Positions 42,264 to 59,249 of a DNA stretch of 59,712 nucleotides are shown in pieces. The notes below the pieces were generated by a model that searched no databases, had not been told where the DNA came from, and was given only the letters and a program-made list of their open reading frames with translations. Origin of the DNA: Chloroflexota bacterium (lineage in GTDB: Bacteria; Chloroflexota; Anaerolineae; Aggregatilineales; Phototrophicaceae); the NCBI GenBank assembly GCA_039822165.1, contig JBCBMS010000017.1, forward strand, positions 1 through 59,712, in the 5' to 3' direction. A program made the position numbers and the translations under genes. How positions within the stretch are numbered: the first letter of the stretch is position 1; the number at the start of each line of letters is the position of its first letter.

Positions 42264-42911
42264 CTAAATACTGCGTCCGGTTTCTGCTGTGCCGGTAGCG
42301 GTGGCCGCCGGGGTGACGGTGGGCAGTGGCGTGACGGTATCTGTGGGCGGTGTGGTCGCGTCCGGGTCAATTGTCGGCGTCGGTAGCGGGGTGCTGGTTA
42401 CTGTCGGCGTGATCGGCGTCACGGTGGGCAGCGGCGTGGGCGAGATCGTCGGTGACGGAGTGGGAGCCAGCGGCTCAATCGTGTCGTTGCGCATGTAGGC
42501 TTCGTCAATGCGGCGCGTGTCCGTGTTCAGGTCGATGAGGTACCAGTCGGTGTCGCCCACGCGCTCAATCACGCACATAATGCGCCCACCCACCGCAGAG
42601 TCAATCACGGCGGCCTCTACAGACGGTGAGCGGCGCACATTGGCTGTGGGCACACTCACAATCCAGTCCTCGCACGCCGGGATGGGTGTAAATGTGGGGA
42701 ACAATGTGCGGGTGGGGTCGGCTTCCGTGGCGCGGCGCACAGAGGCCGTGGTAGCGACCACTGCCGCCTGCTCTGTTGCTGCATCCACGCCCAGGCCGCC
42801 TGTCGCCAGGTAGGTTTGCAGGCCCAGCCACAGGTAGTAGCTGCCCAGCACGAACGCCACACTCAGCAAAAAGATTAACCACGCCGGGATACCCCGCCTG
42901 CGCCTGTACAC
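42264..42911 (-). CDS. membrane-anchored protein with Pro/Thr-rich C-terminal low-complexity tail
   Basis: N-terminal TM; C-terminal PTPSPTISPTPLPTVTPITPTVTSTPLPTPT. Confidence 0.55.
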   Translation of the reverse strand: MYRRRRGIPAWLIFLLSVAFVLGSYYLWLGLQTYLATGGLGVDAATEQAAVVATTASVRRATEADPTRTLFPTFTPIPACEDWIVSVPTANVRRSPSVEAAVIDSAVGGRIMCVIERVGDTDWYLIDLNTDTRRIDEAYMRNDTIEPLAPTPSPTISPTPLPTVTPITPTVTSTPLPTPTIDPDATTPPTDTVTPLPTVTPAATATGTAETGRSI

Positions 42912-45028: not shown

Positions 45029-46738
45029 TTATGCGCCCTGTGCGGGCAATTCCACGGTCACTACGGTTCCGGCATTCAGTCGGCTGTCCAGCGAAATCGT
45101 GCCGCCCATCGCTTCCACGATGTTGCGCACAATCACCAGCCCCAGGCCGGTACCGTTGATCGTTCTGACATTTGCTGCCCGGTAGAACGGCTGGAACAGA
45201 TTCGATAGCTCATCCTGCGGGATGCCAATGCCACTGTCCAGCACCTGCATGACGTACTCGCCACGCTGGTAGGAGATCAACAGATCAATGGCCGTGCCCT
45301 GCGGGCTGTAACGTGCGGCATTCGTGAGCAGATTGCCCACAATATATTTCAACCAGCGCTCGTCGGTAACGATTACATGAGCATCCGGTTCACAGGACAG
45401 ACGAACCGGGTTGTTGTACTTCTGATTCAGATCGTGAACGGCCTGGCGTGCAAACTGCACCATATCTACCGGGTTATACTTGAATACAAAGCCAGAATTA
45501 TCGTTACGCACCACCATGTCAATGTCATCCAGAATCTGGGTCAGGTGGGCTGTCTGCTCCTGCATAGATACAAGCCGCTGCTGGCGCTTCTCCGGCGTGA
45601 GGCGGTCGTGGTAGTCGTGCAGCAGGTCACTCGCGCTGCGGATGCTGGCCAGCGGGTTCCGCAGCTCATGAGAAAGTGTCATCATCAGCTTACGACGAAT
45701 TTCACTCAGTTCGCGTTCCTTGCGCAGTTCAACTTCCAGCTTTTCTCTCTCGAGCCGTTCGCGTTCACGTTCCACCCGCTCGGTGATGTCAATGAAAATA
45801 CAGATGACGCTTGATCGTTCCCCGTCTTCGTAGATGGCGTGCGTGCGTAATTCGTAGGCACTGTCCCTCGCGAACAGGGTGATACTCGTCTGCTCGTGCT
45901 TGAGGGCATCCCGCAGGGCTTCTGTAACCTGTGGGTAGTCTTTCAGGACTTCGAACACGGACTGCCCGATGCGGGGCATCCCACCCTCAAATAACCGGTA
46001 AGATCGCGTGCCGGTTGCCAGCAGAACCTGCCCATCTGCGCTCAGCATCAGCAGCACCACCGGGGCATTGGTTGCCATTGTGCGGTACAGGGCCTCACTG
46101 ATCTCCAGATCGCGAGCGGTACTCAGCAGTTCGTCTTGCAGTGTGTCCTCAAAGCGCAGCAGCTCTGTGGTGAAGCGCGTCAGAATGTCCGGGTCTGGAT
46201 AGGTGACGGGCAGCTTGTGGCGGGCTTCCTGTAGCTGTGCCAGCACCTTTGGCCGGTAGCTCTGGACAACATCTTCCAGCACGTCCAGCACCCGGTTCAC
46301 AATCTCGACATCAAAACTCCATACGGTATCGAACTTTCGGTGAGCTTCGGTTTTCGCCGGGGCCAGGTTATCCAGCCCACACAGGATCACGCTGAAGTCT
46401 GCACTGAGAATAGCCACGAACCATTCCTGGCGCAGCGGGTCGTCGCCGTCCAGTTCAATCTGGATGGCACCGGCAGCAGAGTCTGCTGGCAGCGGCTTAC
46501 CGGCAAAGATGCATACCTGCATGTTACTATCGGCCAGCGTCTGATAGCGTTCTGTCTCTTTGCGCCAGTGGGAGGACTCCTGGAAGCCGGTGAACAACAT
46601 GGCAGGCACTTGCTTTTGCAGCACGAAGTCTTCCAGTGTATGCGAAAGATGCACCAGCGTGGCTTTAGTCAGTTGTATAATCGGCAGGTCGTTACCGATC
46701 CTATCCTTCAGCGTCTGGAAGATTGATAGCTTTGCCAT
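45029..46738 (-). CDS. sensor histidine kinase (N-terminal sensory domain + PAS + HisKA + HATPase)
   Basis: H-box LSHELRNPL, N/G boxes (LLTNAARYS, DSGIGIP, GTGLGL). Confidence 0.85.
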   Translation of the reverse strand: MAKLSIFQTLKDRIGNDLPIIQLTKATLVHLSHTLEDFVLQKQVPAMLFTGFQESSHWRKETERYQTLADSNMQVCIFAGKPLPADSAAGAIQIELDGDDPLRQEWFVAILSADFSVILCGLDNLAPAKTEAHRKFDTVWSFDVEIVNRVLDVLEDVVQSYRPKVLAQLQEARHKLPVTYPDPDILTRFTTELLRFEDTLQDELLSTARDLEISEALYRTMATNAPVVLLMLSADGQVLLATGTRSYRLFEGGMPRIGQSVFEVLKDYPQVTEALRDALKHEQTSITLFARDSAYELRTHAIYEDGERSSVICIFIDITERVERERERLEREKLEVELRKERELSEIRRKLMMTLSHELRNPLASIRSASDLLHDYHDRLTPEKRQQRLVSMQEQTAHLTQILDDIDMVVRNDNSGFVFKYNPVDMVQFARQAVHDLNQKYNNPVRLSCEPDAHVIVTDERWLKYIVGNLLTNAARYSPQGTAIDLLISYQRGEYVMQVLDSGIGIPQDELSNLFQPFYRAANVRTINGTGLGLVIVRNIVEAMGGTISLDSRLNAGTVVTVELPAQGA

Positions 46739-46846
46739 AATAATCTCGTTAAAACCACGTAATATGCAGGAATTGTAATATGTCTGATGTTCGTCATGAT
46801 TGTAACGCACTTTTGATGTCGTGTACGATTAGTATTGGCAATATCT

Positions 46847-48971: not shown

Positions 48972-49757
48972 GTGGATTCTAACACGAAAGCTCAGATGAA
49001 AGAGGCCCGCGACCGGATTCGCGGCGGGCACTACGATGAAGCCCGCGCCATTCTGCTGTACATTCGGCACCCGACTGCCCGTGAGTGGCTGGAAAAGCTG
49101 GAACAACTCGACCCATCCGGCAGCGCAGATTCCCTGGCACAGCGACCGACGAAACGCGACAGCGGCCTCAGCCCGGTGGCGATTGGTGTGCTGGCCGTGG
49201 GCGTGGTCGTGTTCGTCGCGGCTATTGTGCTGATGGTGACGGGAACACTCTCGAATTTGTCCGGGTTTTCATTCAATTCCGAGCCGGCCCCGGCGACTAT
49301 GCTGCGTTTCGATCACCCGCAGGTGGCCTTCAGCTACCCGGACACGTTGCAGTTACAGGACGCTTCGCAGCACCCGGATTGTGACCTGCCGCTGGAGTGC
49401 GCGGCCTGGCTGACGGATAGCCGCCGGGATGCGCATGTGCTGGTGAGTTCAATCACCATTCCGCTCCAGATTATCGACTACAGCAGCGACGAACTGGAGC
49501 GGGCGTTGATGCGCTTTGTGCGTGATGGCGTGGCGGGTGAGGAGTTTATCTCGCGCGGGCTGGTGGATGTGGGTGAGGGCCGCTACGAGGCCATCCGGCG
49601 GGAGATGTACTACCCCACCGGCGGCTATGAAGTCACCTACCTGATTACGTTTGAGGGGCGGGCCTACTTCGTGTGGTACCTCGCCAGCTCTGAGCGCGAT
49701 CTTAACCGCTATATGGCCGACGCCGAGATGGTCGCCAATACGCTGCTCATCAAGTAG
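48972..49757 (+). CDS. hypothetical membrane-anchored protein
   Basis: 261-aa ORF with one central TM segment. Confidence 0.5.
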   Translation: MDSNTKAQMKEARDRIRGGHYDEARAILLYIRHPTAREWLEKLEQLDPSGSADSLAQRPTKRDSGLSPVAIGVLAVGVVVFVAAIVLMVTGTLSNLSGFSFNSEPAPATMLRFDHPQVAFSYPDTLQLQDASQHPDCDLPLECAAWLTDSRRDAHVLVSSITIPLQIIDYSSDELERALMRFVRDGVAGEEFISRGLVDVGEGRYEAIRREMYYPTGGYEVTYLITFEGRAYFVWYLASSERDLNRYMADAEMVANTLLIK

Positions 49758-49809: not shown

Positions 49810-49836
49810 GTAGGGACATGCTTCTGCATGTCCGCC
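49810..49836. repeat. REP unit (GTAGGGAC...GTCCGCC), plus orientation; with 49754..49789 forms an inverted doublet between convergent genes
   Basis: gtagggacatgc-ttct-gcatgtccgcc. Confidence 0.6.
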
Positions 49837-49859
49837 GCAAAAAAACGGGAGAGGATAAC

Positions 49860-51113
<1,254 letters not shown>

Positions 51114-51269: not shown

Positions 51270-52577
51270 ATGCCAGCACAAAAAACGCTCTACATCCACA
51301 TCGGCATGCCCAAAACCGGCACCACCACCATCCAGCATGGGCTACAGATCAACGAAGATGCCCTGCGGGAAAATGGCTACTATCTGCCAGTGACGGGCCG
51401 GCTCCGTAGCCCGCGCACCATCGTACATGCCAACGTGGGCCTGCAATACCTCACCGATAACGCCGCGTTCCACGACCGCTACGACGACAGCATGCCCTTC
51501 TCCGCGCTCATCGACGAAATCCAGCAGCAGGACGCGCCAAACAGCATCATCTCGCACGAGATATTATTCTCCATGCCACCAGAGCAAAACACGGCCTTCC
51601 GTGCCGCTATCCCGGCAAACATCCGCCCGGTCATCATCATCTACATCCGCCGCCACGACCGCTACGTGCAGTCGGCGTGGTCACAGCATGTGCGGATTTC
51701 GCGAAAAACATGGTCATTCGAGGAGTACTTCGACCGACTGGACGACCCGAAACAGCAGCGCTACCGTGACTATGACTTCATTCTATCCGGGTGGGAGCGT
51801 GAGTTCGGCATCGAGAATATCCGGGTACGCCGCTTTGATGAGGTGATTGCCGGGGAGACGCACCTGTTCCATGATTTTTTGCAGACATGCGACGTGCCAC
51901 AGCCGCCACAGTACGCCGTGCCAGAGCAGATCAACATCTCGCCATCGTACAAAACGCTGGAAGTCATCCGTGCCGTCACAAAACGAGCCAATCTGGACAC
52001 GAACGACCCGGATAGCTTCTTCGACATCACCCGTTTTACCGAACCCGTCCAGAAGTACGCGCAGCAGGCCGGCTGGGACAGCGAAAAACTGAACCTGATG
52101 ACCCCGGAGCGACACAGGCGCATTCAGCAGTTGTTCGGGGAGTCTGACGCGCGGGTGGCTCGCCGTTACTTTGACAGCGACACGCTGTTCCCGCATAGCT
52201 ACAAAGACCGCCCCGTCTCACAGTTCGATATGGAGCGGGATGTGACCCCGGATGATTGGCTGAGCATCGCGACGTTTGCCATGCTGGAGGCACTGAAGCG
52301 GTCACAGAACGCGAACCGGTTGCTGAAACGTAACGAACAGTTGCAGCGTCAGCTCACACAGACGCGGCTGCAGGCCGAACTGGACGCTGCCAACAAACGC
52401 ATTGCCGACCTCGAAGCCGAACTGGCAAACCGCCGTCAGTTGCCGCTGGCCCGCGCCGGGGAACTGATTGCAGCGGCACAGCGCGAAGCCCGTGAGGGTG
52501 GCATGGGCGGGTTGTTCGGGCGAGTGTGGGGCTGGTTGCAGGGCCAGCGGAGCGGTGGCCAGCACAGCACCCGTTGA
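51270..52577 (+). CDS. sulfotransferase-like P-loop protein with C-terminal coiled coil
   Basis: IHIGMPKTGTTTIQ (5'-PSB-like); C-terminal heptad-rich region. Confidence 0.5.
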   Translation: MPAQKTLYIHIGMPKTGTTTIQHGLQINEDALRENGYYLPVTGRLRSPRTIVHANVGLQYLTDNAAFHDRYDDSMPFSALIDEIQQQDAPNSIISHEILFSMPPEQNTAFRAAIPANIRPVIIIYIRRHDRYVQSAWSQHVRISRKTWSFEEYFDRLDDPKQQRYRDYDFILSGWEREFGIENIRVRRFDEVIAGETHLFHDFLQTCDVPQPPQYAVPEQINISPSYKTLEVIRAVTKRANLDTNDPDSFFDITRFTEPVQKYAQQAGWDSEKLNLMTPERHRRIQQLFGESDARVARRYFDSDTLFPHSYKDRPVSQFDMERDVTPDDWLSIATFAMLEALKRSQNANRLLKRNEQLQRQLTQTRLQAELDAANKRIADLEAELANRRQLPLARAGELIAAAQREAREGGMGGLFGRVWGWLQGQRSGGQHSTR

Positions 52578-52653: not shown

Positions 52654-53811
52654 ATGATCGGCACGATTGTTGAGATTGTTATCGGTCTGGTTTTTGTTTA
52701 CGTCCTGCTCAGTTTGCTCGTCACGCAGTTAAACAACATTGTGGTGTGGGCGACCCGCCTGCGGGCCAATGTCCTGTTCGTTTTTGTGCGGGATAAGCTG
52801 TTGCAGGGTGAACTCGGCACAATTCTCCAGCACCCGCTGCTGAACCTTGTAGAAGAAAATGGGGCAATCAAACGCACTGCCACCTATATTGACCCGCAAG
52901 CCTTTGCACTCACCCTCTCCAACGCGACCGTGGAGCGTGTGGTGCGGGCGGTGGAAAGCCGGTTACAGGGTGTCGATCGGCAGCAGGTAGAGTCTACCGG
53001 TGCAAAGCTGCTGATCGAACTGAAAGACCCGGCGCTCACCATCCAGAACCTGCAATCGCTGAAAACCAGTGCTGCTAACCTGCCCGCCGGGGGCGCAAAA
53101 CAGGCCATTACTGCCGAACTGGACGATATGATCCGCGTGCTGACAGAGTACCAGGCTACCCCGGCAGAAGACAAAGACGCGCGGCTGGCGCTGCTTCAGC
53201 GCGAGGTGCAGAACGTCAACAACTATGCGCTGCGCACGTCGCTCAGTTCCCTGCTGGAAACAGTGGAGACGTTCGATGACACCATCACCCGTATCGGGCA
53301 GTGGTTTGACGACCGTGTAGCAGAAACATCAAAGGTCTACAGCCGCCGCATGGCGCAGATCAGTTTCATCCTCGGGTTAATCTGCGCCATCGTCATCAAT
53401 GCCGATTCACTCTACATTGCCCGCGTCCTGTGGGATGACAGCGAACTTCGCCAGCAAATTGTTGTCGAGGCCACAGATAATCTGTCTACCGTTGAGGAGC
53501 TTATCACCAGCAGCGAGGAGATGCGGGCCCAGCTTTCTGCCACAGAAGACCCTGCCGCACCGGAACAACCCATCGAAGCGCAGGCGGCGCAGCGTACCGA
53601 GGAACTCTCGACGACGCTGGAAGACATTGAGGCGACCATCGCACTTATTGAATCGACCAATCTGCCGGTGGGGTGGAGCGTGGGCAATGTGCCCACCGAT
53701 GTACCCGGCTTTTTGCTACAGATGGTGGGCTGGGTGATTACGGCACTTGCTACCACACTGGGTGCCCCGTTCTGGTTCGACATTCTGCGCAACCTCACAA
53801 AACCGCGTTAA
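52654..53811 (+). CDS. hypothetical 3-TM membrane protein, paralog A
   Basis: N-terminal IVEIVIGLVFVYVLLSLLV, central SFILGLICAIVINADSLYIARVLWDDS, C-terminal LGAPFWFDILRNL. Confidence 0.6.
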   Translation: MIGTIVEIVIGLVFVYVLLSLLVTQLNNIVVWATRLRANVLFVFVRDKLLQGELGTILQHPLLNLVEENGAIKRTATYIDPQAFALTLSNATVERVVRAVESRLQGVDRQQVESTGAKLLIELKDPALTIQNLQSLKTSAANLPAGGAKQAITAELDDMIRVLTEYQATPAEDKDARLALLQREVQNVNNYALRTSLSSLLETVETFDDTITRIGQWFDDRVAETSKVYSRRMAQISFILGLICAIVINADSLYIARVLWDDSELRQQIVVEATDNLSTVEELITSSEEMRAQLSATEDPAAPEQPIEAQAAQRTEELSTTLEDIEATIALIESTNLPVGWSVGNVPTDVPGFLLQMVGWVITALATTLGAPFWFDILRNLTKPR

Positions 53812-53915
53812 CGGCAAACTGCCGGAAAAATGGTATATTTGGAAAAACAAACCGACTGTCATGGGATGTGCCTGTGCATATCCCCTTTTTGCAAACATAA
53901 GGGGGCAACGGAATC

Positions 53916-55199
53916 ATGCTGGGTTCCGCAGTGATTGAAGTCATTATCGGGCTGGTGTTCGTCTACATCCTGCTCAGTTTGCTGGTCTCGCAAATCAACC
54001 AGCTCATCGCCGATCTGCTTAACATCCGCGCCAACGCACTGCGCGAACGGGTTGAAAAACTGCTCTACGACGAGCAGCTACAGGAGCGCGTACTTACACA
54101 TCCCGTCGTGGGCATCCTGCGGCCTCCACTGCCAGAAGACACGCCAGACCGCCGCCAGCGCACGGCAAAGGTCGCCAACCTGGCCGCGAACAACTTCGCC
54201 AAAGCACTGGTGAACATCCTCAGCGACCCGTACCTAGACCTGTATGCAGCACTCACCACGGTTGAGGACGAAGAAACGGCAGACCGCATGCGCATGGTGG
54301 TCGATCAACTGAAAGCCAACGTGGGTGACCCCACCCGCGCCCGTGCTGTCCTCAGTCGCCTGCACAACGAGATCGACAAACTGCGCGAAACCGACGAATA
54401 CGCTTATGAATCACTGATCCGCACACTGGGGCCGCTGCAAGCATCGGTGCAAAACATCCAGTCCGGCAACTCCGGCTATTTGCAGGTACTCAACGGCGTC
54501 AGCCAGATCGACAACCGGGCGTTCCAGGTCGCAATGGAAACCGTGCTTTCTGGCACGCAGAACCTCAAGGAAGCCGAACTGGCCATTGAGGAGTGGTACG
54601 ATAACAAGATGTCGCAAACGAAAGACACCTATGGCCGCTACATGAGCAATCTGTCGCTGCTGGTGGGGTTGCTGCTGGCTGTCTTCCTGAACATTGACTC
54701 GCTGTATCTGGCCCGCACCCTGTGGAACGACAGTGCCCTGCGCGACCGCCTGTCGGTTGCTGCCAATGCCGCCGTCATCAACGCAGAAGATGTGGCCATC
54801 CAGCAACCAGCCGTTGCCGGGCCGGGTGGCCAGAGTACCGAGGATGCCATCACTGCCGCTGCGGATAGCTTCCAGCTTGCCGAGGCTACGTTCGAGCGGT
54901 TGCTGGAACTGCGTCTGCCCATCGGCTGGACGTTCCGACTGCCAGGGAGTGCTCCAGAAACCATATCCGGCGGAACGGTGAATGTATACGACGCCACACA
55001 GGATTCCCGCAACCTGTACAACATTGTGGTGCCGTGGTCATCACGAGAGTGGCTGCTGAACGTGATTGCCAAGCTGGCCGGGTTGATTATCACGTCGTTT
55101 GCGGTGGCACAGGGTGCGCCCTTCTGGTTCGATGTGCTGCGGCGTGTGAGTGGGCAGAAAAGCCCCTCATCCACCGGTACCAGTACCACAAACGCCTGA
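53916..55199 (+). CDS. hypothetical 3-TM membrane protein, paralog B
   Basis: Same three conserved segments as paralog A (VIEVIIGLVFVYILLSLLV; LNIDSLYLARTLWNDS; QGAPFWFDVLRRV). Confidence 0.6.
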   Translation: MLGSAVIEVIIGLVFVYILLSLLVSQINQLIADLLNIRANALRERVEKLLYDEQLQERVLTHPVVGILRPPLPEDTPDRRQRTAKVANLAANNFAKALVNILSDPYLDLYAALTTVEDEETADRMRMVVDQLKANVGDPTRARAVLSRLHNEIDKLRETDEYAYESLIRTLGPLQASVQNIQSGNSGYLQVLNGVSQIDNRAFQVAMETVLSGTQNLKEAELAIEEWYDNKMSQTKDTYGRYMSNLSLLVGLLLAVFLNIDSLYLARTLWNDSALRDRLSVAANAAVINAEDVAIQQPAVAGPGGQSTEDAITAAADSFQLAEATFERLLELRLPIGWTFRLPGSAPETISGGTVNVYDATQDSRNLYNIVVPWSSREWLLNVIAKLAGLIITSFAVAQGAPFWFDVLRRVSGQKSPSSTGTSTTNA

Positions 55200-55246: not shown

Positions 55247-55723
55247 TCAGTACAGGGCAAGCGCCATCGCCAGTGCCCCGCAACCGGCACAACCAATGGA
55301 AAAGCGCAGCAGGTTCAGGTGAAACCAGTGCATACGTTCCTCCCGCCAGCCCTCTACCTCTGTGTCTTTGTCCCATGCCATGATGCGGTCGTACCACGGT
55401 TCATTGGCATACCGGGATACAAGCACCGGCCCGGCAACGAACAACACAACCCCAACAGCAGCCCCGATGAACGTCGGCGTCCCGATTGAATCTCGGAGCA
55501 GCACCAGCGCAATCCCCGCACTGAGCAACGGCAATAGCAGCAGCACCCATACAACAATCGCCTTCCTGCCGGAGGTGATAATGCCCTGCATCACCTGTGT
55601 GTACGTCGCGTAATCCAGTTGATAGAGCATCCGCTGGATAACGCCCATCATCGCGGCGATGATACCGACGAATAGACTCGAACTGACCACGGTTATCACG
55701 AGAAGAACTTCAATGATGTCCAT
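55247..55723 (-). CDS. DUF1772-like (anthrone oxygenase-like) small membrane protein
   Basis: 158 aa, 4 TM, pattern consistent with DUF1772. Confidence 0.45.
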   Translation of the reverse strand: MDIIEVLLVITVVSSSLFVGIIAAMMGVIQRMLYQLDYATYTQVMQGIITSGRKAIVVWVLLLLPLLSAGIALVLLRDSIGTPTFIGAAVGVVLFVAGPVLVSRYANEPWYDRIMAWDKDTEVEGWREERMHWFHLNLLRFSIGCAGCGALAMALALY

Positions 55724-55806: not shown

Positions 55807-56556
55807 TTATGTGGTATACATCACCCGCGCCAGCCGCCTTATCAGATACGCCAGCGCGGCAAACTGTGTGACGAGGGCGATCACCATATAGAGCGGCCAC
55901 AGACTTTCACCGGCTTCGATGGCCCACAGTGATTTCATCGTCCAGTACGGGGGGTACACCCCGGCGATGAACTGCCACGGTTCCGGGATAAACCACGCAC
56001 CCATGACAATCAACATCAGTGACCCCACGATTTTGATTGTCGCGAAGCCCTCCACCTTGTTCGCAGAGAATATCGCGAGGAACAGTGATACCAGCGCGGC
56101 GAACACGGCGTTCACGGTGGCCAGCAGCAGAATATGCCACCACGCCAGCGCATGCAGATTGCCGAGCAGCGCCAGTCCCAGTACACTGAACACGAACCCG
56201 ATCACCGTAGGGATCATGACGCGATACAGGATGTACTTACCGGGGGGCACCGGCGTGACCAGCATCGCTGTGAGCGTGCCGGTATCGCGTTCGTCAATAA
56301 GTATGAAGCCCATCACCGTGCCGGATAGCACCGCCGCCACCTGATGCAGCACCAGTCCCGACACAATCAGCGGATAGTACACCGACAGATCAAAGTCCAT
56401 CTCTTTCATCAGCGTATTGGCCAGTGGCGGCACCGCGAACCGGATCAGGATGATGGCGAACAGCGCATACCCGAACAGCATAATCAGGAACGTATCTCGC
56501 CCGATGATTCGCGCATCGTTGCGCCCGACCTTTGCAACAACCTGTGTGAACTGCAT
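55807..56556 (-). CDS. ABC-2 type exporter permease
   Basis: 249 aa, 6 TM. Confidence 0.7.
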   Translation of the reverse strand: MQFTQVVAKVGRNDARIIGRDTFLIMLFGYALFAIILIRFAVPPLANTLMKEMDFDLSVYYPLIVSGLVLHQVAAVLSGTVMGFILIDERDTGTLTAMLVTPVPPGKYILYRVMIPTVIGFVFSVLGLALLGNLHALAWWHILLLATVNAVFAALVSLFLAIFSANKVEGFATIKIVGSLMLIVMGAWFIPEPWQFIAGVYPPYWTMKSLWAIEAGESLWPLYMVIALVTQFAALAYLIRRLARVMYTT

Positions 56557-56557
56557 G

Positions 56558-57268
56558 CTAACTCCCTCCCATCAGGATAATGTGACGATCAAACGCGATC
56601 TTTGCCCACACACTCAACCCGGCAATCCAGAGCACGGAATAGCCCACCCCGTAGATAAGCTGCCATGTGGAAATACCATCAAACCCGCCGAGCATCAGTA
56701 CGAACGGTGCAGCGGTCGGGATGGCGTACCACAACGCGTCCAGCCCCGCACCCAGGTTCGCCAGCAGGAAGATCGGTAGCTGCGTGATAACTCCGATAAT
56801 CCCCGCTGGCAGGAAGAAATCGGTCACGGTGTCATAGCGCACCACGGGAATAATGCCCATCAGCACCATCATGGCACCGAGCAGCACCATGCCCGTGTAA
56901 ACGAGCAACCCGTTAAACCCGAACCCGAACGACAGCAGGATAATCACACTCGTTTCCAGCGTCGCCAGCAGCGTGAGCGTCACCGTTTTCGAGAACAGGT
57001 ACTCGCGCACGCGCAGTGGCGTCACAATGATGCCATCCAGCGTGTTCTCGTTCTTCTCGAAGATAATCATCCCGGCCACGAACATGAATGTCGTGCCACC
57101 TATAGCCATCAACACGAACGCGGGAATCGCTGCCCCCAGCATGTCCTGCGGGAAGAAGCTGCGCATGGCCACCGCAATCAACAGCGCCAGCCCGATACTG
57201 ATGTGATACAGCTTGTTGCGGGCCTGCAACGTAACATCCAGCCGCATGGTACTGAACAGGCGCGTCAT
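56558..57268 (-). CDS. ABC-2 type exporter permease
   Basis: 236 aa, 6 TM, adjacent to ATPase with ATGA overlap. Confidence 0.7.
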   Translation of the reverse strand: MTRLFSTMRLDVTLQARNKLYHISIGLALLIAVAMRSFFPQDMLGAAIPAFVLMAIGGTTFMFVAGMIIFEKNENTLDGIIVTPLRVREYLFSKTVTLTLLATLETSVIILLSFGFGFNGLLVYTGMVLLGAMMVLMGIIPVVRYDTVTDFFLPAGIIGVITQLPIFLLANLGAGLDALWYAIPTAAPFVLMLGGFDGISTWQLIYGVGYSVLWIAGLSVWAKIAFDRHIILMGGS

Positions 57269-58119
57269 GACAGTTCCCTCCCGGTGACCTCAATGAAGAT
57301 ATTCTCCAGCGTGGTTTCCTTTGTATGGATCGTTGCGATTTCGTGCTGCCGCAGCAGGTCAATGAACGCGCTGTTGTCGCCCAGGCCATCCAGCGAGAAG
57401 TCGCAGTCTTCCACATGCCCGTTGACGTGGTAGCGCACGTTCACTTTGCGTTCGCCGTGCTGCACTTTCAATGTTGCGGGCGCGTCAATCAGTGCGATGT
57501 CGCCATCTACGATGAACGCCACCCGGTCACACAGTTCATCGGCTACGGTCATGTTGTGTGTGGTGACGAACACTGTCGTGCCTTCCTCACGCAGCCGCAA
57601 AATCAGGTTTTTGATGTTGCGGGCGTTCACCGGGTCAAGTCCAGATGTTGGCTCGTCCATGAACAGCACCTTCGGCTTATTGAGCAGGCTGCGGGCCACA
57701 TTCAGGCGGTTCTTCATGCCCTTGCTGAAGTCACTCACGCGCTTATCGGCATCATCACGCAGCCCCACCCACTCCAGCACCTCGTGCGGGTCACGGGTTT
57801 CACCGCTGTAAAGCGATGCGAAGTACGCCAGGTTCTCCAGCGCCGTCAGCTTGAGATAGTGGTTCGGCAGCTCGAACGACACCCCGACGTGTTCATAGTA
57901 GTCGCTGCCCCACGCACTCACCTCTTTGCCCATGACCAGCGCACTGCCAGTGTACCTGCGCAGCAAACCGATGAGCAGCTTCTGCGTGGTGGATTTGCCC
58001 GCGCCAGACGGCCCCAGAAACCCGAATATCTCGCGTTCGGCTATGTTGAACGATATGCCGTGCAGCGTTTCCGCCGGGGCACCCGGATAGGTGTAGTGCA
58101 GGTCTTTCACGTCGATCAT
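57265..58119 (-). CDS. ABC transporter ATP-binding protein (exporter)
   Basis: Walker A GPSGAGKST, signature SKGMKNRL, Walker B LFMDEPTSGLD. Confidence 0.9.
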   Translation of the reverse strand: MIDVKDLHYTYPGAPAETLHGISFNIAEREIFGFLGPSGAGKSTTQKLLIGLLRRYTGSALVMGKEVSAWGSDYYEHVGVSFELPNHYLKLTALENLAYFASLYSGETRDPHEVLEWVGLRDDADKRVSDFSKGMKNRLNVARSLLNKPKVLFMDEPTSGLDPVNARNIKNLILRLREEGTTVFVTTHNMTVADELCDRVAFIVDGDIALIDAPATLKVQHGERKVNVRYHVNGHVEDCDFSLDGLGDNSAFIDLLRQHEIATIHTKETTLENIFIEVTGRELS

Positions 58120-58571: not shown

Positions 58572-59249
58572 ATGGCGACTGACGACCGCGAACAGCGCAT
58601 CCTGGATGCCGCGCTGGATCTGATTACGCACTATGGCTACGACAAAACCCCCGTCAGTGAAATTGCAGAACAGGCCGGGGTGAGCAAGGGGGCTATCTAC
58701 CTGCACTTTGAGAGCAAAATCGACCTGCTGGATGCCCTGCTCAAACGGGAGATGGCCAGCTATGCCGAAGACTGGATGCAGCGCGTCCAGGCAGACCCGG
58801 ACGGTGGCAGTATGGGCAGTGTGTATAAACACAGCCTGGGCGCACTCAATGCGAACCCGTTCATGCGGGCGCTGTTCAACCAGGACAGGCGCGTGCTGGG
58901 CAAATACCTGAAAGAAACCGACCAGGTGTTCAACATGAAACAGGCCGTAGAAACACGGGCGCTGTTTATCCGGCAGATGCAGGAGGTGGGGGCGGTGCGT
59001 GATGATGTAGACCCCTATACGACTGCGTACCTGATGAGCGTGTTTGTAAACGGCATCACGGCGATGGACGCAGTGGTGCCGGATGAAGCCGTGCCGCCCT
59101 TTGATGAATTGATGACGGCAATGGGCGACATGATGGACAGCTACCTCTCGCGGTGCGGCACCACCAACACCGAAGCCGGTAAGCAGGTGATCGCCAATGT
59201 CACTGTCGCGTTCCGGCAGCGCTCCGGGGCAGGCGACGCTGAGAGTTAA
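58572..59249 (+). CDS. TetR/AcrR family transcriptional regulator
   Basis: N-terminal TetR HTH (ILDAALDLITHYGYDKTPVSEIAEQAGVSKGAIYLHF). Confidence 0.85.
   Translation: MATDDREQRILDAALDLITHYGYDKTPVSEIAEQAGVSKGAIYLHFESKIDLLDALLKREMASYAEDWMQRVQADPDGGSMGSVYKHSLGALNANPFMRALFNQDRRVLGKYLKETDQVFNMKQAVETRALFIRQMQEVGAVRDDVDPYTTAYLMSVFVNGITAMDAVVPDEAVPPFDELMTAMGDMMDSYLSRCGTTNTEAGKQVIANVTVAFRQRSGAGDAES

What the first reader, a model, noticed from the sequence alone, without database searches (positions are those of the whole stretch)
52654..55199. Tandem paralogous 3-TM proteins of unknown function downstream of a sulfotransferase-like coiled-coil protein
Two adjacent genes (385 and 427 aa) share three conserved hydrophobic segments: N-terminal (E)IVIGLVFVY(V/I)LLSLLV, central LNIDSLY(I/L)AR(V/T)LW(D/N)DS and C-terminal (L/Q)GAPFWFD(I/V)LR. 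Between these segments are long, divergent helical regions. They follow a P-loop sulfotransferase-like protein with a coiled-coil tail (51270..52577) and precede a DUF1772 membrane protein. I recognise no characterised family, so this may be an uncharacterised membrane-associated system.
Basis: inference. Interest (0 to 1): 0.55.

Follow-up and report, generated by a model that had tools for sequence, protein, structure and literature searches.

The report
Duplicated uncharacterised three-pass membrane protein
Two neighbouring genes encode diverged copies of a very widespread bacterial inner-membrane protein that no database describes and whose predicted fold matches no solved structure. The supposed link to the neighbouring sulfotransferase-like gene is not conserved, and the only functional clue is that a few percent of relatives sit directly in front of cell-wall-cutting enzymes.

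Summary
ORFs 52654..53811 (385 aa, A) and 53916..55199 (427 aa, B) are full-length paralogues (E = 6e-32, 26% identity) with three hydrophobic segments and the quoted motifs.

They are not a local oddity. A profile finds 15,710 cluster representatives (6,394 at E <= 1e-30) across Chloroflexota, Acidobacteriota, Proteobacteria, Bacteroidota, Cyanobacteria, Nitrospirota and Verrucomicrobiota. All are "hypothetical", with no significant Pfam, NCBIfam, PADLOC, PHROG or PDB match. Confident AlphaFold models (pLDDT 84-85) have no convincing fold neighbour in the PDB.

B is the vertically inherited copy, normally single and divergent from icd. A is a rare lineage-specific duplicate, tandem in only one other locus.

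The sulfotransferase-like, DUF1772 and ABC genes are absent from all other loci examined, so the proposed "system" is not supported.

Inferred topology is N-out, C-in, with a variable cytoplasmic helical domain.

In about 3% of loci the family gene is directly followed by a signal-less peptidoglycan hydrolase, of three catalytic classes. My best guess, at low confidence, is therefore a holin-like gated membrane conduit. The family is almost absent from phages, and most copies stand alone.

The parts
52654..53811 (+). Paralogue A (385 aa), a divergent lineage-specific duplicate of the family gene
   Evidence: ORF. Paralogy to B at E = 6e-32. It keeps every near-invariant family residue. Its only close relative is the tandem copy in L002, at 45% identity. 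None of 370 retrieved homologues exceeds about 29% identity. A GGAGG Shine-Dalgarno lies 9 nt upstream of the ATG.
53916..55199 (+). Paralogue B (427 aa), the vertically inherited orthologue of the family gene of Anaerolineae
   Evidence: ORF. Orthologues at 45-73% identity. In Phototrophicaceae loci L003 and L004 the orthologue lies directly next to a divergently oriented icd. AlphaFold pLDDT 85.3, pTM 0.76.
52666..52722 (+). A, TM1 (residues 5-23, IVEIVIGLVFVYVLLSLLV)
   Evidence: Kyte-Doolittle score 2.87. Family-conserved acidic residue, G and F.
53365..53421 (+). A, TM2 with the N249-x-D251 motif at its outer end
   Evidence: N is 99% and D 98% conserved in 468 sequences.
53710..53766 (+). 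A, TM3 ending in the GAPFWFD motif
53931..53987 (+). B, TM1 (residues 6-24)
   Evidence: Kyte-Doolittle score 2.88. Helix 2-35 in the model.
54594..54713 (+). B, conserved W227-Y-D helix running into TM2 (residues 248-266), with N259-x-D261
   Evidence: One continuous helix 217-258 in the model. W227 99%, N259 99%, D261 98% conserved.
54918..54929 (+). B, conserved extracytoplasmic L-P-I-G-W motif (P335, G337, W338)
   Evidence: 97-99% conserved in 468 sequences.
55053..55133 (+). B, TM3 (residues 380-398) plus the G400-A-P-F-W-F-D406 motif at the cytoplasmic face
   Evidence: G389 and F405 are 100% conserved; G400, P402, F403 and W404 are 98-99%.
53863..53884 (+). Terminator-like hairpin (9-bp stem followed by CTTTTTG) between A and B
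   Evidence: Consensus scan; sequence read. This suggests, but does not prove, that A and B are separate transcription units.
49860..51113 (-). icd (isocitrate dehydrogenase), the ancestral divergent neighbour of the family gene. Context only, not a functional partner.
   Evidence: Iso_dh E = 1.4e-84. icd lies within the flanks in 45 of 80 related loci, mostly directly divergent.
51270..52577 (+). P-loop (PKTGTT) protein with a coiled-coil tail, inserted together with A between icd and B. Linkage is not conserved.
   Evidence: Sulfotransfer_3 only at E = 0.73; no NCBIfam or PDB hit. Absent from all 173 loci examined. Plasmid homologues are annotated hypothetical or glycosyltransferase.

Best explanation
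Shown, with high confidence (about 0.9): A and B are two diverged members of one very large, uncharacterised bacterial family of inner-membrane proteins. The family has three TM helices with the N-terminus outside and the C-terminus inside. A variable all-helical cytoplasmic domain of 100 to more than 300 aa lies between TM1 and TM2, and an extracytoplasmic segment of about 100 aa lies between TM2 and TM3. B is the vertically inherited, normally single-copy gene of Anaerolineae that sits divergently next to icd. A is a rare lineage-specific duplicate that lies, together with an unrelated P-loop gene, between icd and B. The sulfotransferase-like and DUF1772 genes are not functional partners.

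Inferred, with low confidence (about 0.3): the family forms a homo-oligomeric (here possibly A/B hetero-oligomeric), gated membrane conduit or permeabiliser that works like a holin. The three TM helices would build the membrane lesion or channel. The near-invariant polar set at the outer membrane face (acidic residue in TM1, N259-x-D261 at the end of TM2, R276) and the GAPFWFD aromatic belt at the inner face would line or anchor it. The variable cytoplasmic helical bundle would set the trigger. Its physiological use would be to give signal-less cell-wall hydrolases, and in some operons other enzymes, access to the envelope. For the stand-alone chromosomal copies of filamentous Anaerolineae, that would mean controlled autolysin release or wall remodelling.
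For: Family size and breadth: 15,710 representatives at E <= 1e-3 and 6,394 at E <= 1e-30. Named members come from Chloroflexota, Pyrinomonadaceae, Desulfobacteraceae, Chthoniobacterales, Nitrospira, Blastocatellia, Rhizobium, Agrobacterium, Paracoccus, Caballeronia, Vitreoscilla, Hymenobacter, Nostoc and Kovacikia.

Topology: K+R counts are 8.95 on the proposed inside against 3.6 on the proposed outside, and inside exceeds outside in 98.9% of 364 proteins. This is the class I holin topology (PMC9636201).

Orthology and duplication.

Association with hydrolases: the family gene is immediately followed on the same strand by a PG_binding_1-bearing peptidoglycan hydrolase of three catalytic classes. 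These are Amidase_2 in Caballeronia and Hymenobacter (1-bp gap), GH25 in L123 and GH19 in L128. A fourth class, a Phage_lysozyme with PG_binding_1, lies 2 kb away in Nostoc. All four adjacent enzymes lack signal peptides. Of 8 PG_binding_1 ORFs in 180 loci, 5 are the first downstream gene.

Other envelope-related neighbours: an SH3_3 single-pass membrane protein sits directly upstream in about 13 Anaerolineae loci. M15 and S8 peptidases, GH75 and a patatin also occur nearby.

Positively charged C-terminal tail.
Against: Hydrolase adjacency holds for only about 3% of sampled loci. More than 90% of copies, including B and its orthologues, stand alone with no recurrent partner. The window itself has no hydrolase next to A or B. 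The family is essentially absent from viruses: none in 50,697 phage records and 2 in 2.9 million IMG/VR contigs, neither in a lysis cassette. The proteins are 3-5 times larger than known holins. A permanently encoded, vertically inherited lethal pore would need tight control, for which there is no evidence. No oligomer model or experiment is available. Caballeronia and Hymenobacter carry one horizontally shared cassette (60% identical amidases), so the independent hydrolase-adjacent cases number about four.
Confidence: 0.3

Rival explanations
1. An ion channel, or a membrane-tension or envelope-stress sensor, unrelated to hydrolase export. The oligomerised 3-TM core would conduct ions past the conserved Asn/Asp/Glu ring at the outer face, and the variable cytoplasmic helical bundle would gate it.
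Confidence: 0.25
2. A non-conducting envelope scaffold. The protein would anchor or position cell-wall-binding proteins and hydrolases through its extracytoplasmic loop (L-P-x-G-W, LW-D-LR) and couple them to a cytoplasmic helical domain, in the way RodZ or EzrA organise wall synthesis.
For: An SH3_3 single-pass membrane protein lies directly upstream on the same strand in about 13 Anaerolineae loci, and near the gene in 29. PG_binding_1 hydrolases are adjacent in several loci. The conserved extracytoplasmic motifs could be a binding surface. Many hosts are filamentous: Anaerolineae, Nostoc, Kovacikia, Vitreoscilla filiformis.
Against: The adjacent hydrolases have no signal peptide, so they need export, not merely anchoring. 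The strongest conservation is within and at the ends of the TM helices rather than in the soluble parts. The SH3_3 gene is 10 kb away in the window.
Confidence: 0.15
3. A membrane-disrupting effector of conflict (abortive-infection or defence) systems that has been domesticated in some lineages.
For: Copies occur on plasmids as the terminal gene of operons. One follows a patatin-like phospholipase. Several follow a VCPO/PAP2 protein, an S8-like peptidase and small hypothetical proteins, an arrangement conserved in Agrobacterium, Rhizobium, Paracoccus, Roseicyclus and Puniceibacterium. Neighbours include Peptidase_C14 and TCAD9 and a MADS mad3 protein. Toxin-antitoxin genes and transposases are nearby.
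Against: Neither the family nor its operon partners match any PADLOC model. The Anaerolineae copies, including B, are single-copy, syntenic with icd and a GlmM-like gene, and clearly vertically inherited. No sensor or NTPase partner recurs.
Confidence: 0.12
4. One reading: the two 3-TM proteins, the sulfotransferase-like coiled-coil protein and the DUF1772 protein form one membrane-associated system.
For: There is a 76-bp gap with no predicted terminator between the P-loop gene and A, and a promoter-like site upstream of the P-loop gene. In other lineages the family does pair with assorted enzymes.
Against: The P-loop gene is absent from all 173 related loci examined, and the DUF1772 gene from the 80 genomic loci tested for it. 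DUF1772 is on the opposite strand. In L002, the only other tandem locus, the 183 nt upstream of A are closed in all three frames and show no similarity to the P-loop protein. A terminator-like hairpin separates A from B.
Confidence: 0.05

Closest known systems
Class I holins (e.g. lambda S105) and bacterial holin/endolysin secretion cassettes (Type 10 secretion: ChiWX, TcdE, the Yersinia entomophaga lysis cassette)
   Same: Three TM helices with N-out, C-in topology and a basic C-terminal tail (PMC9636201). In a subset of loci the gene sits directly upstream of, and is tightly coupled to, signal-less peptidoglycan hydrolases of several catalytic classes. Like T10SS, these cassettes are chromosomal or plasmid-borne rather than phage-borne (PMC10109510, PMC13284979, PMC10847048).
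   Different: The proteins are 300-570 aa, whereas known holins are much smaller (my own knowledge: roughly 70-150 aa), and carry large folded cytoplasmic and extracytoplasmic domains. There is no sequence similarity to any phage protein family, and the family is virtually absent from phage genomes. Most copies have no endolysin neighbour. No hole formation has been shown.
RcGTA holin rcc00556 of Rhodobacter capsulatus
   Same: [quoted passage not shown] That distribution resembles this family's.
   Different: Membership could not be tested, because neither the sequence nor the primary paper is held. The Rhodobacterales family members found here lie in a VCPO/PAP2 operon, not between cycJ and a heme-lyase gene, and are sporadic rather than near-universal.
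MotA/ExbB/TolQ stator proteins
   Same: Same gross topology as known for ExbB and TolQ (from my own knowledge): N-out TM1, a large helical cytoplasmic domain between TM1 and TM2, C-in, and function as oligomers.
Bestrophin / TTYH helical membrane proteins
   Different: The rmsd is 10-18 A. The matches disappear for the compact family member and in Foldseek. The TM number also differs (from my own knowledge, 4-5 TM helices against 3 here). The resemblance is judged to come from generic helical bundles.

Membership tests
Class I holin | Three TM helices, N-terminus out, C-terminus in | tested here: met
   Hydropathy and the positive-inside rule in 98.9% of 364 family members. Definition from PMC9636201.
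Class I holin | Small protein (holins are typically about 70-150 aa; from my own knowledge) with almost no extramembrane domains | tested here: not met
   A is 385 aa and B 427 aa; the family ranges from 263 to 572 aa, with folded helical domains.
Class I holin | Encoded next to an endolysin in a lysis cassette | tested here: not met
   Not met in the window, where no hydrolase flanks A or B. Met in only about 3% of family loci: L087, L088, L123, L128 and, weakly, L095.
Class I holin | Phage or prophage origin | tested here: not met
   No hit in 50,697 phage records. Two hits in 2.9 million IMG/VR contigs, both beside ParB-methylases. No PHROG match.
Class I holin | Forms lethal membrane holes at a programmed time | not testable with these tools
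   Requires expression and permeability assays.
   B reads MLG|SAVIE, but the G is absent in many members (for example MAAIIEV). The acidic residue is E in 51%, D in 39% and Q in 7%. There is no basic leader (N-tail K+R mean 0.01) and no pilin Pfam hit.
Bestrophin / TTYH | Significant sequence or fold similarity to the bestrophin or TTYH core | tested here: not met
MotA/ExbB/TolQ | MotA_ExbB domain and an adjacent ExbD/TolR/MotB partner | tested here: not met
   No Pfam hit and no such neighbour in 173 loci.
Known anti-phage defence proteins (PADLOC) | Match to a defence-system model | tested here: not met
   No hit for A, B, four other family members or their operon partners.
RcGTA holin rcc00556 family | Sequence homology to rcc00556; synteny with rcc00555, cycJ and a heme lyase gene | not testable with these tools
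Rhodobacterales members of this family lack that synteny, which is indirect evidence against.
Sulfotransferase (upstream gene 51270..52577) | Significant match to a sulfotransferase family model | tested here: inconclusive
   Sulfotransfer_3 at E = 0.73, 10.5 bits against a cut-off of 27. No NCBIfam or PDB hit. Only the PKTGTT loop resembles the PAPS-binding motif.
DUF1772 / Anthrone_oxy (downstream gene 55247..55723) | Pfam PF08592 at gathering threshold | tested here: inconclusive
   E = 1.6e-5, 25.5 bits against a cut-off of 27.3.

The most novel reading that the evidence does not exclude
The pair represents a pan-bacterial family with a previously undescribed fold: large, cytoplasmically regulated 'giant holins' or autolysin gates. 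Bacteria, not phages, would use them to let signal-less cell-wall hydrolases and other enzymes across the inner membrane. In filamentous Anaerolineae the gene would be fixed as a housekeeping function, and duplicated here into a possible A/B hetero-oligomer.
Probability: 0.2. Interest if true: 0.75.

Novelty: new variant of a known kind. Interest (0 to 1): 0.45.

Why it matters
If the holin-like reading is right, it would add a very large, non-phage, chromosomally inherited class to the machinery that lets signal-less proteins cross the bacterial inner membrane. Until now that class has been known mainly from phage-derived small holins and T10SS. It would also give a handle on autolysin control in poorly studied filamentous Chloroflexota.

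Even without a function, the result has value. A family with more than 15,000 sequence clusters across at least seven phyla, a confident predicted fold with no neighbour in the PDB, and a sharply defined set of near-invariant residues is a clear candidate for a new Pfam/DUF entry and for structural study. Cultured carriers that could be tested include Rhizobium, Agrobacterium, Vitreoscilla, Hymenobacter, Caballeronia and Nostoc.

For the scan itself, the specific claim of a sulfotransferase-linked system can be dropped.

Tried and rejected
Single-sequence and per-member scans of Pfam, NCBIfam, PADLOC and PHROGs gave only noise. PDB sequence searches with one sequence and with a profile gave nothing.

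Prepilin-like N-terminus: rejected, because the motif is not conserved.

Riboswitch or other RNA element upstream: no Rfam hit in the window locus or in nine related loci.

Conserved operon partner: two independent sets of loci (80 genomic, 93 metagenomic or plasmid) show no dominant neighbour. The icd, GlmM-like and Fe-ADH_2 synteny in Anaerolineae is divergent or convergent, so it probably reflects shared descent rather than an operon.

RcGTA holin rcc00556: the literature was suggestive, but the primary paper and the sequence are not held, and Rhodobacterales members show a different synteny.

Phage origin: rejected.

Link of A to the P-loop gene in L002: the contig is too short to decide, and what is there gives no support.

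Amphipathic interfacial helices after TM2 and TM3: hydrophobic moments are only modest (0.11-0.45), so I make no claim.

A first literature search on Anaerolineae membrane proteins was unproductive.
Full report
**Observation.** BLASTP aligns them end to end at 26% identity with E = 6e-32, so the paralogy is real. Each has three TM-grade hydrophobic segments: A at residues 5-23, 238-256 and 353-371; B at 6-24, 248-266 and 380-398. A GGAGG sits 9 nt before A's ATG and an AGGGGG before B's. A 9-bp hairpin followed by a T-run (53863..53884) lies in the 104-nt spacer. No third copy exists in the window.

**No characterised family.** Neither protein, nor any of 46 aligned relatives, gives a significant Pfam hit. 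NCBIfam, PADLOC and PHROGs give only noise. PDB sequences give nothing, even with a profile.

AlphaFold2 with a 46-sequence alignment gives a confident all-helical model of B (pLDDT 85.3, pTM 0.76). A 330-aa compact family member, P0220, gives pLDDT 83.6 and pTM 0.74. Foldseek against the PDB finds nothing below E = 0.5.

**A very large family.** A word-indexed search with B found 286 relatives, all "hypothetical", and the named ones come from Anaerolineae and Phototrophicaceae. An exhaustive HMM search of 1.84 billion cluster representatives found 15,710 at E <= 1e-3, 11,764 at E <= 1e-10 and 6,394 at E <= 1e-30.

Further searches and tblastn place members in the following groups:

- Pyrinomonadaceae and Blastocatellia (Acidobacteriota), Desulfobacteraceae, Chthoniobacterales and Nitrospira.
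- On plasmids or chromids of cultured bacteria: Rhizobium, Agrobacterium, Paracoccus, Caballeronia, Vitreoscilla, Hymenobacter, Nostoc and Kovacikia.

Lengths range from about 260 to 570 aa, and the variation lies almost wholly between TM1 and TM2.

**Conserved core and topology.** In an alignment of 468 members, the conserved positions (B numbering) are as follows:

| Position | Conservation |
|---|---|
| Acidic residue at 8 (TM1) | 90% (E 51%, D 39%) |
| G12 | 92% |
| R38 | 98% |
| H62 | 91% |
| F94 | 97% |
| W227 | 99% |
| N259 | 99% |
| D261 | 98% |
| R276 | 97% |
| P335 / G337 / W338 | 98% / 99% / 97% |
| G389 | 100% |
| T393 | 94% |
| G400-A-P-F-W-F405 | 97-100% |
| D406 | 87% |

A retains every one of these, so it is not a decaying copy.

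Lys+Arg counts flanking the TM helices average 8.95 on the side formed by post-TM1, pre-TM2 and post-TM3. They average 3.6 on the side formed by the N-tail, post-TM2 and pre-TM3. The first side is larger in 98.9% of 364 proteins. The inferred topology is therefore N-terminus outside, the long helical loop in the cytoplasm, the ~100-aa loop with LW.D..LR and LP.GW outside, and the basic C-tail inside.

**History of the pair.** In 80 loci from species-representative genomes, nearly all Anaerolineae, Aggregatilineales or Phototrophicaceae, the family gene is single. icd lies within the flanks in 45 loci, mostly directly upstream and divergent. A GlmM-like phosphomutase and an Fe-ADH_2 gene lie convergently downstream in about 48.

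In Phototrophicaceae loci L003 and L004, icd (85% identical to the window's) is followed directly by the B orthologue. B is therefore the ancestral copy. In the window's lineage, A and a P-loop gene lie between icd and B.

Only L002 has the same tandem, with A at 45% and B at 53% identity. None of 370 retrieved homologues is closer than about 29% to A, and none of 93 further loci has a tandem. The duplicate has been kept across considerable divergence, which is compatible with, but does not show, a hetero-oligomer.

**The proposed "system".** The P-loop gene (51270..52577) appears in none of 173 related loci. The DUF1772 gene and the ABC permeases appear in none of the 80 genomic loci tested for them. 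The P-loop protein matches Sulfotransfer_3 only at E = 0.73, with no NCBIfam or PDB hit. Its plasmid homologues are annotated hypothetical or glycosyltransferase.

In L002 the 183 nt upstream of A are closed in all frames and unlike the P-loop protein's C-terminus. The DUF1772-like gene is on the other strand and scores just below threshold. I conclude that these genes are neighbours, not partners.

**Clues to function.** Most copies stand alone, in Chloroflexota, Acidobacteriota and elsewhere. In the second set of loci the commonest neighbour cluster reaches only 8 of 93. No Rfam element precedes the gene.

One theme does recur.

- In Caballeronia and Hymenobacter the gene is followed, at a 1-bp gap, by an Amidase_2 + PG_binding_1 protein, then by a PG-binding/M15-like protein or an S8 peptidase.
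- In soil contig L123 it is followed by a GH25 muramidase + PG_binding_1, and in L128 by a PG_binding_1 + GH19 enzyme.
- On a Nostoc plasmid, a Phage_lysozyme + PG_binding_1 + YkuD protein lies 2 kb away.
- All four adjacent hydrolases begin directly with their catalytic or binding domains and have no signal peptide.

A PG_binding_1 HMM built from these examples finds 8 ORFs in 180 loci, and 5 of them are the first gene downstream on the same strand. With roughly nine genes per locus, about one would be expected by chance. The Caballeronia and Hymenobacter cassettes are related by transfer (amidases 60% identical), so the independent cases number about four.

Other envelope-related neighbours also occur. 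An SH3_3 single-pass membrane protein sits directly upstream in about 13 Anaerolineae loci; its window homologue is 10 kb away at 42492..42911. M15 and S8 peptidases and GH75 also appear. Other plasmid copies end operons that contain a patatin-like phospholipase or a VCPO/PAP2 protein.

**Mechanism.** A three-helix N-out, C-in membrane protein with a basic C-tail, placed immediately upstream of signal-less endolysin-type enzymes of several catalytic classes, is how class I holins and holin-dependent (Type 10) secretion cassettes look (PMC9636201, PMC10109510, PMC13284979, PMC10847048). My best-supported mechanism is therefore a holin-like, oligomeric, gated membrane conduit. The conserved TM core would form the lesion and the variable cytoplasmic bundle would control it.

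I rate this at about 0.3, for four reasons:

- The association covers only about 3% of sampled loci, and none in the window.
- The proteins are several times larger than known holins.
- The family is practically absent from viruses: none in INPHARED and 2 of 2.9 million IMG/VR contigs, both beside ParB-methylases.
- Nothing here shows oligomerisation or pore formation.

The rivals are an ion channel or stress sensor (0.25), an envelope scaffold (0.15) and a conflict-system membrane effector (0.12). For the last, some copies lie near caspase/TCAD9 or MADS genes, but PADLOC does not know the family or its partners.

A link to the RcGTA holin rcc00556 was attractive on distribution (PMC5026251, PMC5721377). 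It could not be tested, and the synteny of Rhodobacterales members does not support it.

**Verdict.** The pair is a lineage-specific duplication within a pan-bacterial, unannotated family whose predicted fold has no neighbour in the PDB. That family is a worthwhile target for a new family definition and for experiments in cultured carriers. Its function remains inferred, so interest is moderate.

Noticed in passing
L087 5001..6272 and L088 5001..6194 (Caballeronia and Hymenobacter plasmids): The two family members share a conserved C-terminal extension of about 70 aa that ends ...DGCEV...LPAA(Q/E)GGV(I/A). The amidases that follow them are 60% identical, although the hosts belong to different phyla. 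This looks like a horizontally transferred cassette, and the tail motif is unexplained.
   Followed up: partly
L090, L092, L175, L176, L177 (Agrobacterium, Paracoccus, Rhizobium rosettiformans, Puniceibacterium, Roseicyclus): A conserved alphaproteobacterial operon reads: hypothetical, PAP2-like hypothetical, small hypothetical, vanadium-haloperoxidase/PAP2 protein, one or two ~120-aa hypotheticals, family gene. It is often on plasmids and near transposases or toxin-antitoxin genes. It is not in PADLOC. It may be an uncharacterised system in its own right.
   Followed up: partly
window 42264..42911 (-): This ORF is a homologue (36% identity) of the SH3_3 single-pass membrane protein with a Pro/Thr-rich tail. 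In about 13 other Anaerolineae loci that protein lies directly upstream of the family gene; here it is 10 kb away.
   Followed up: partly
window 55807..58119 (-) and 58572..59249 (+): An ABC-2 type exporter (two permeases, one matching FLQE3_permease at E = 3.5e-43, plus an ATPase) lies next to an ORF on the other strand that I labelled TetR-like on sight and never scanned. It is probably a drug or lantibiotic-type efflux unit, unrelated to the finding.
   Followed up: no
window 48972..49757 (+): A 261-aa predicted single-pass membrane protein has no Pfam hit and no relative in the 80 related loci.
   Followed up: no
window 49818..50924 (+), 54638..55189 (-), and others: Long antisense 'shadow' ORFs lie opposite real genes (icd, B), as expected at about 57% G+C. 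An antisense ORF inside the family gene recurs in 66 of 93 loci, purely because the sense strand is conserved.
   Followed up: yes
L008, L025, L047, L054, L055, L060, L077: Several MAG records named Oceanobacillus, cyanobacterium/Pleurocapsa or Bacteroidetes carry Anaerolineae-type family genes. L008, L047, L054, L055 and L077 also show the icd synteny; L025 and L060 show no icd. These are probably mis-binned or mis-named contigs.
   Followed up: no
L178 7039..9621 (Nitrospira contig): The gene immediately downstream of a family member is a strong match to the MADS defence protein mad3 (E = 6e-105), so this copy lies beside a defence island.
   Followed up: no
window 45029..46810 (-): A histidine kinase with a DICT sensory domain, a CHASE6_C domain and a PAS domain. 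Response-regulator and kinase genes also flank icd in related loci.
   Followed up: no
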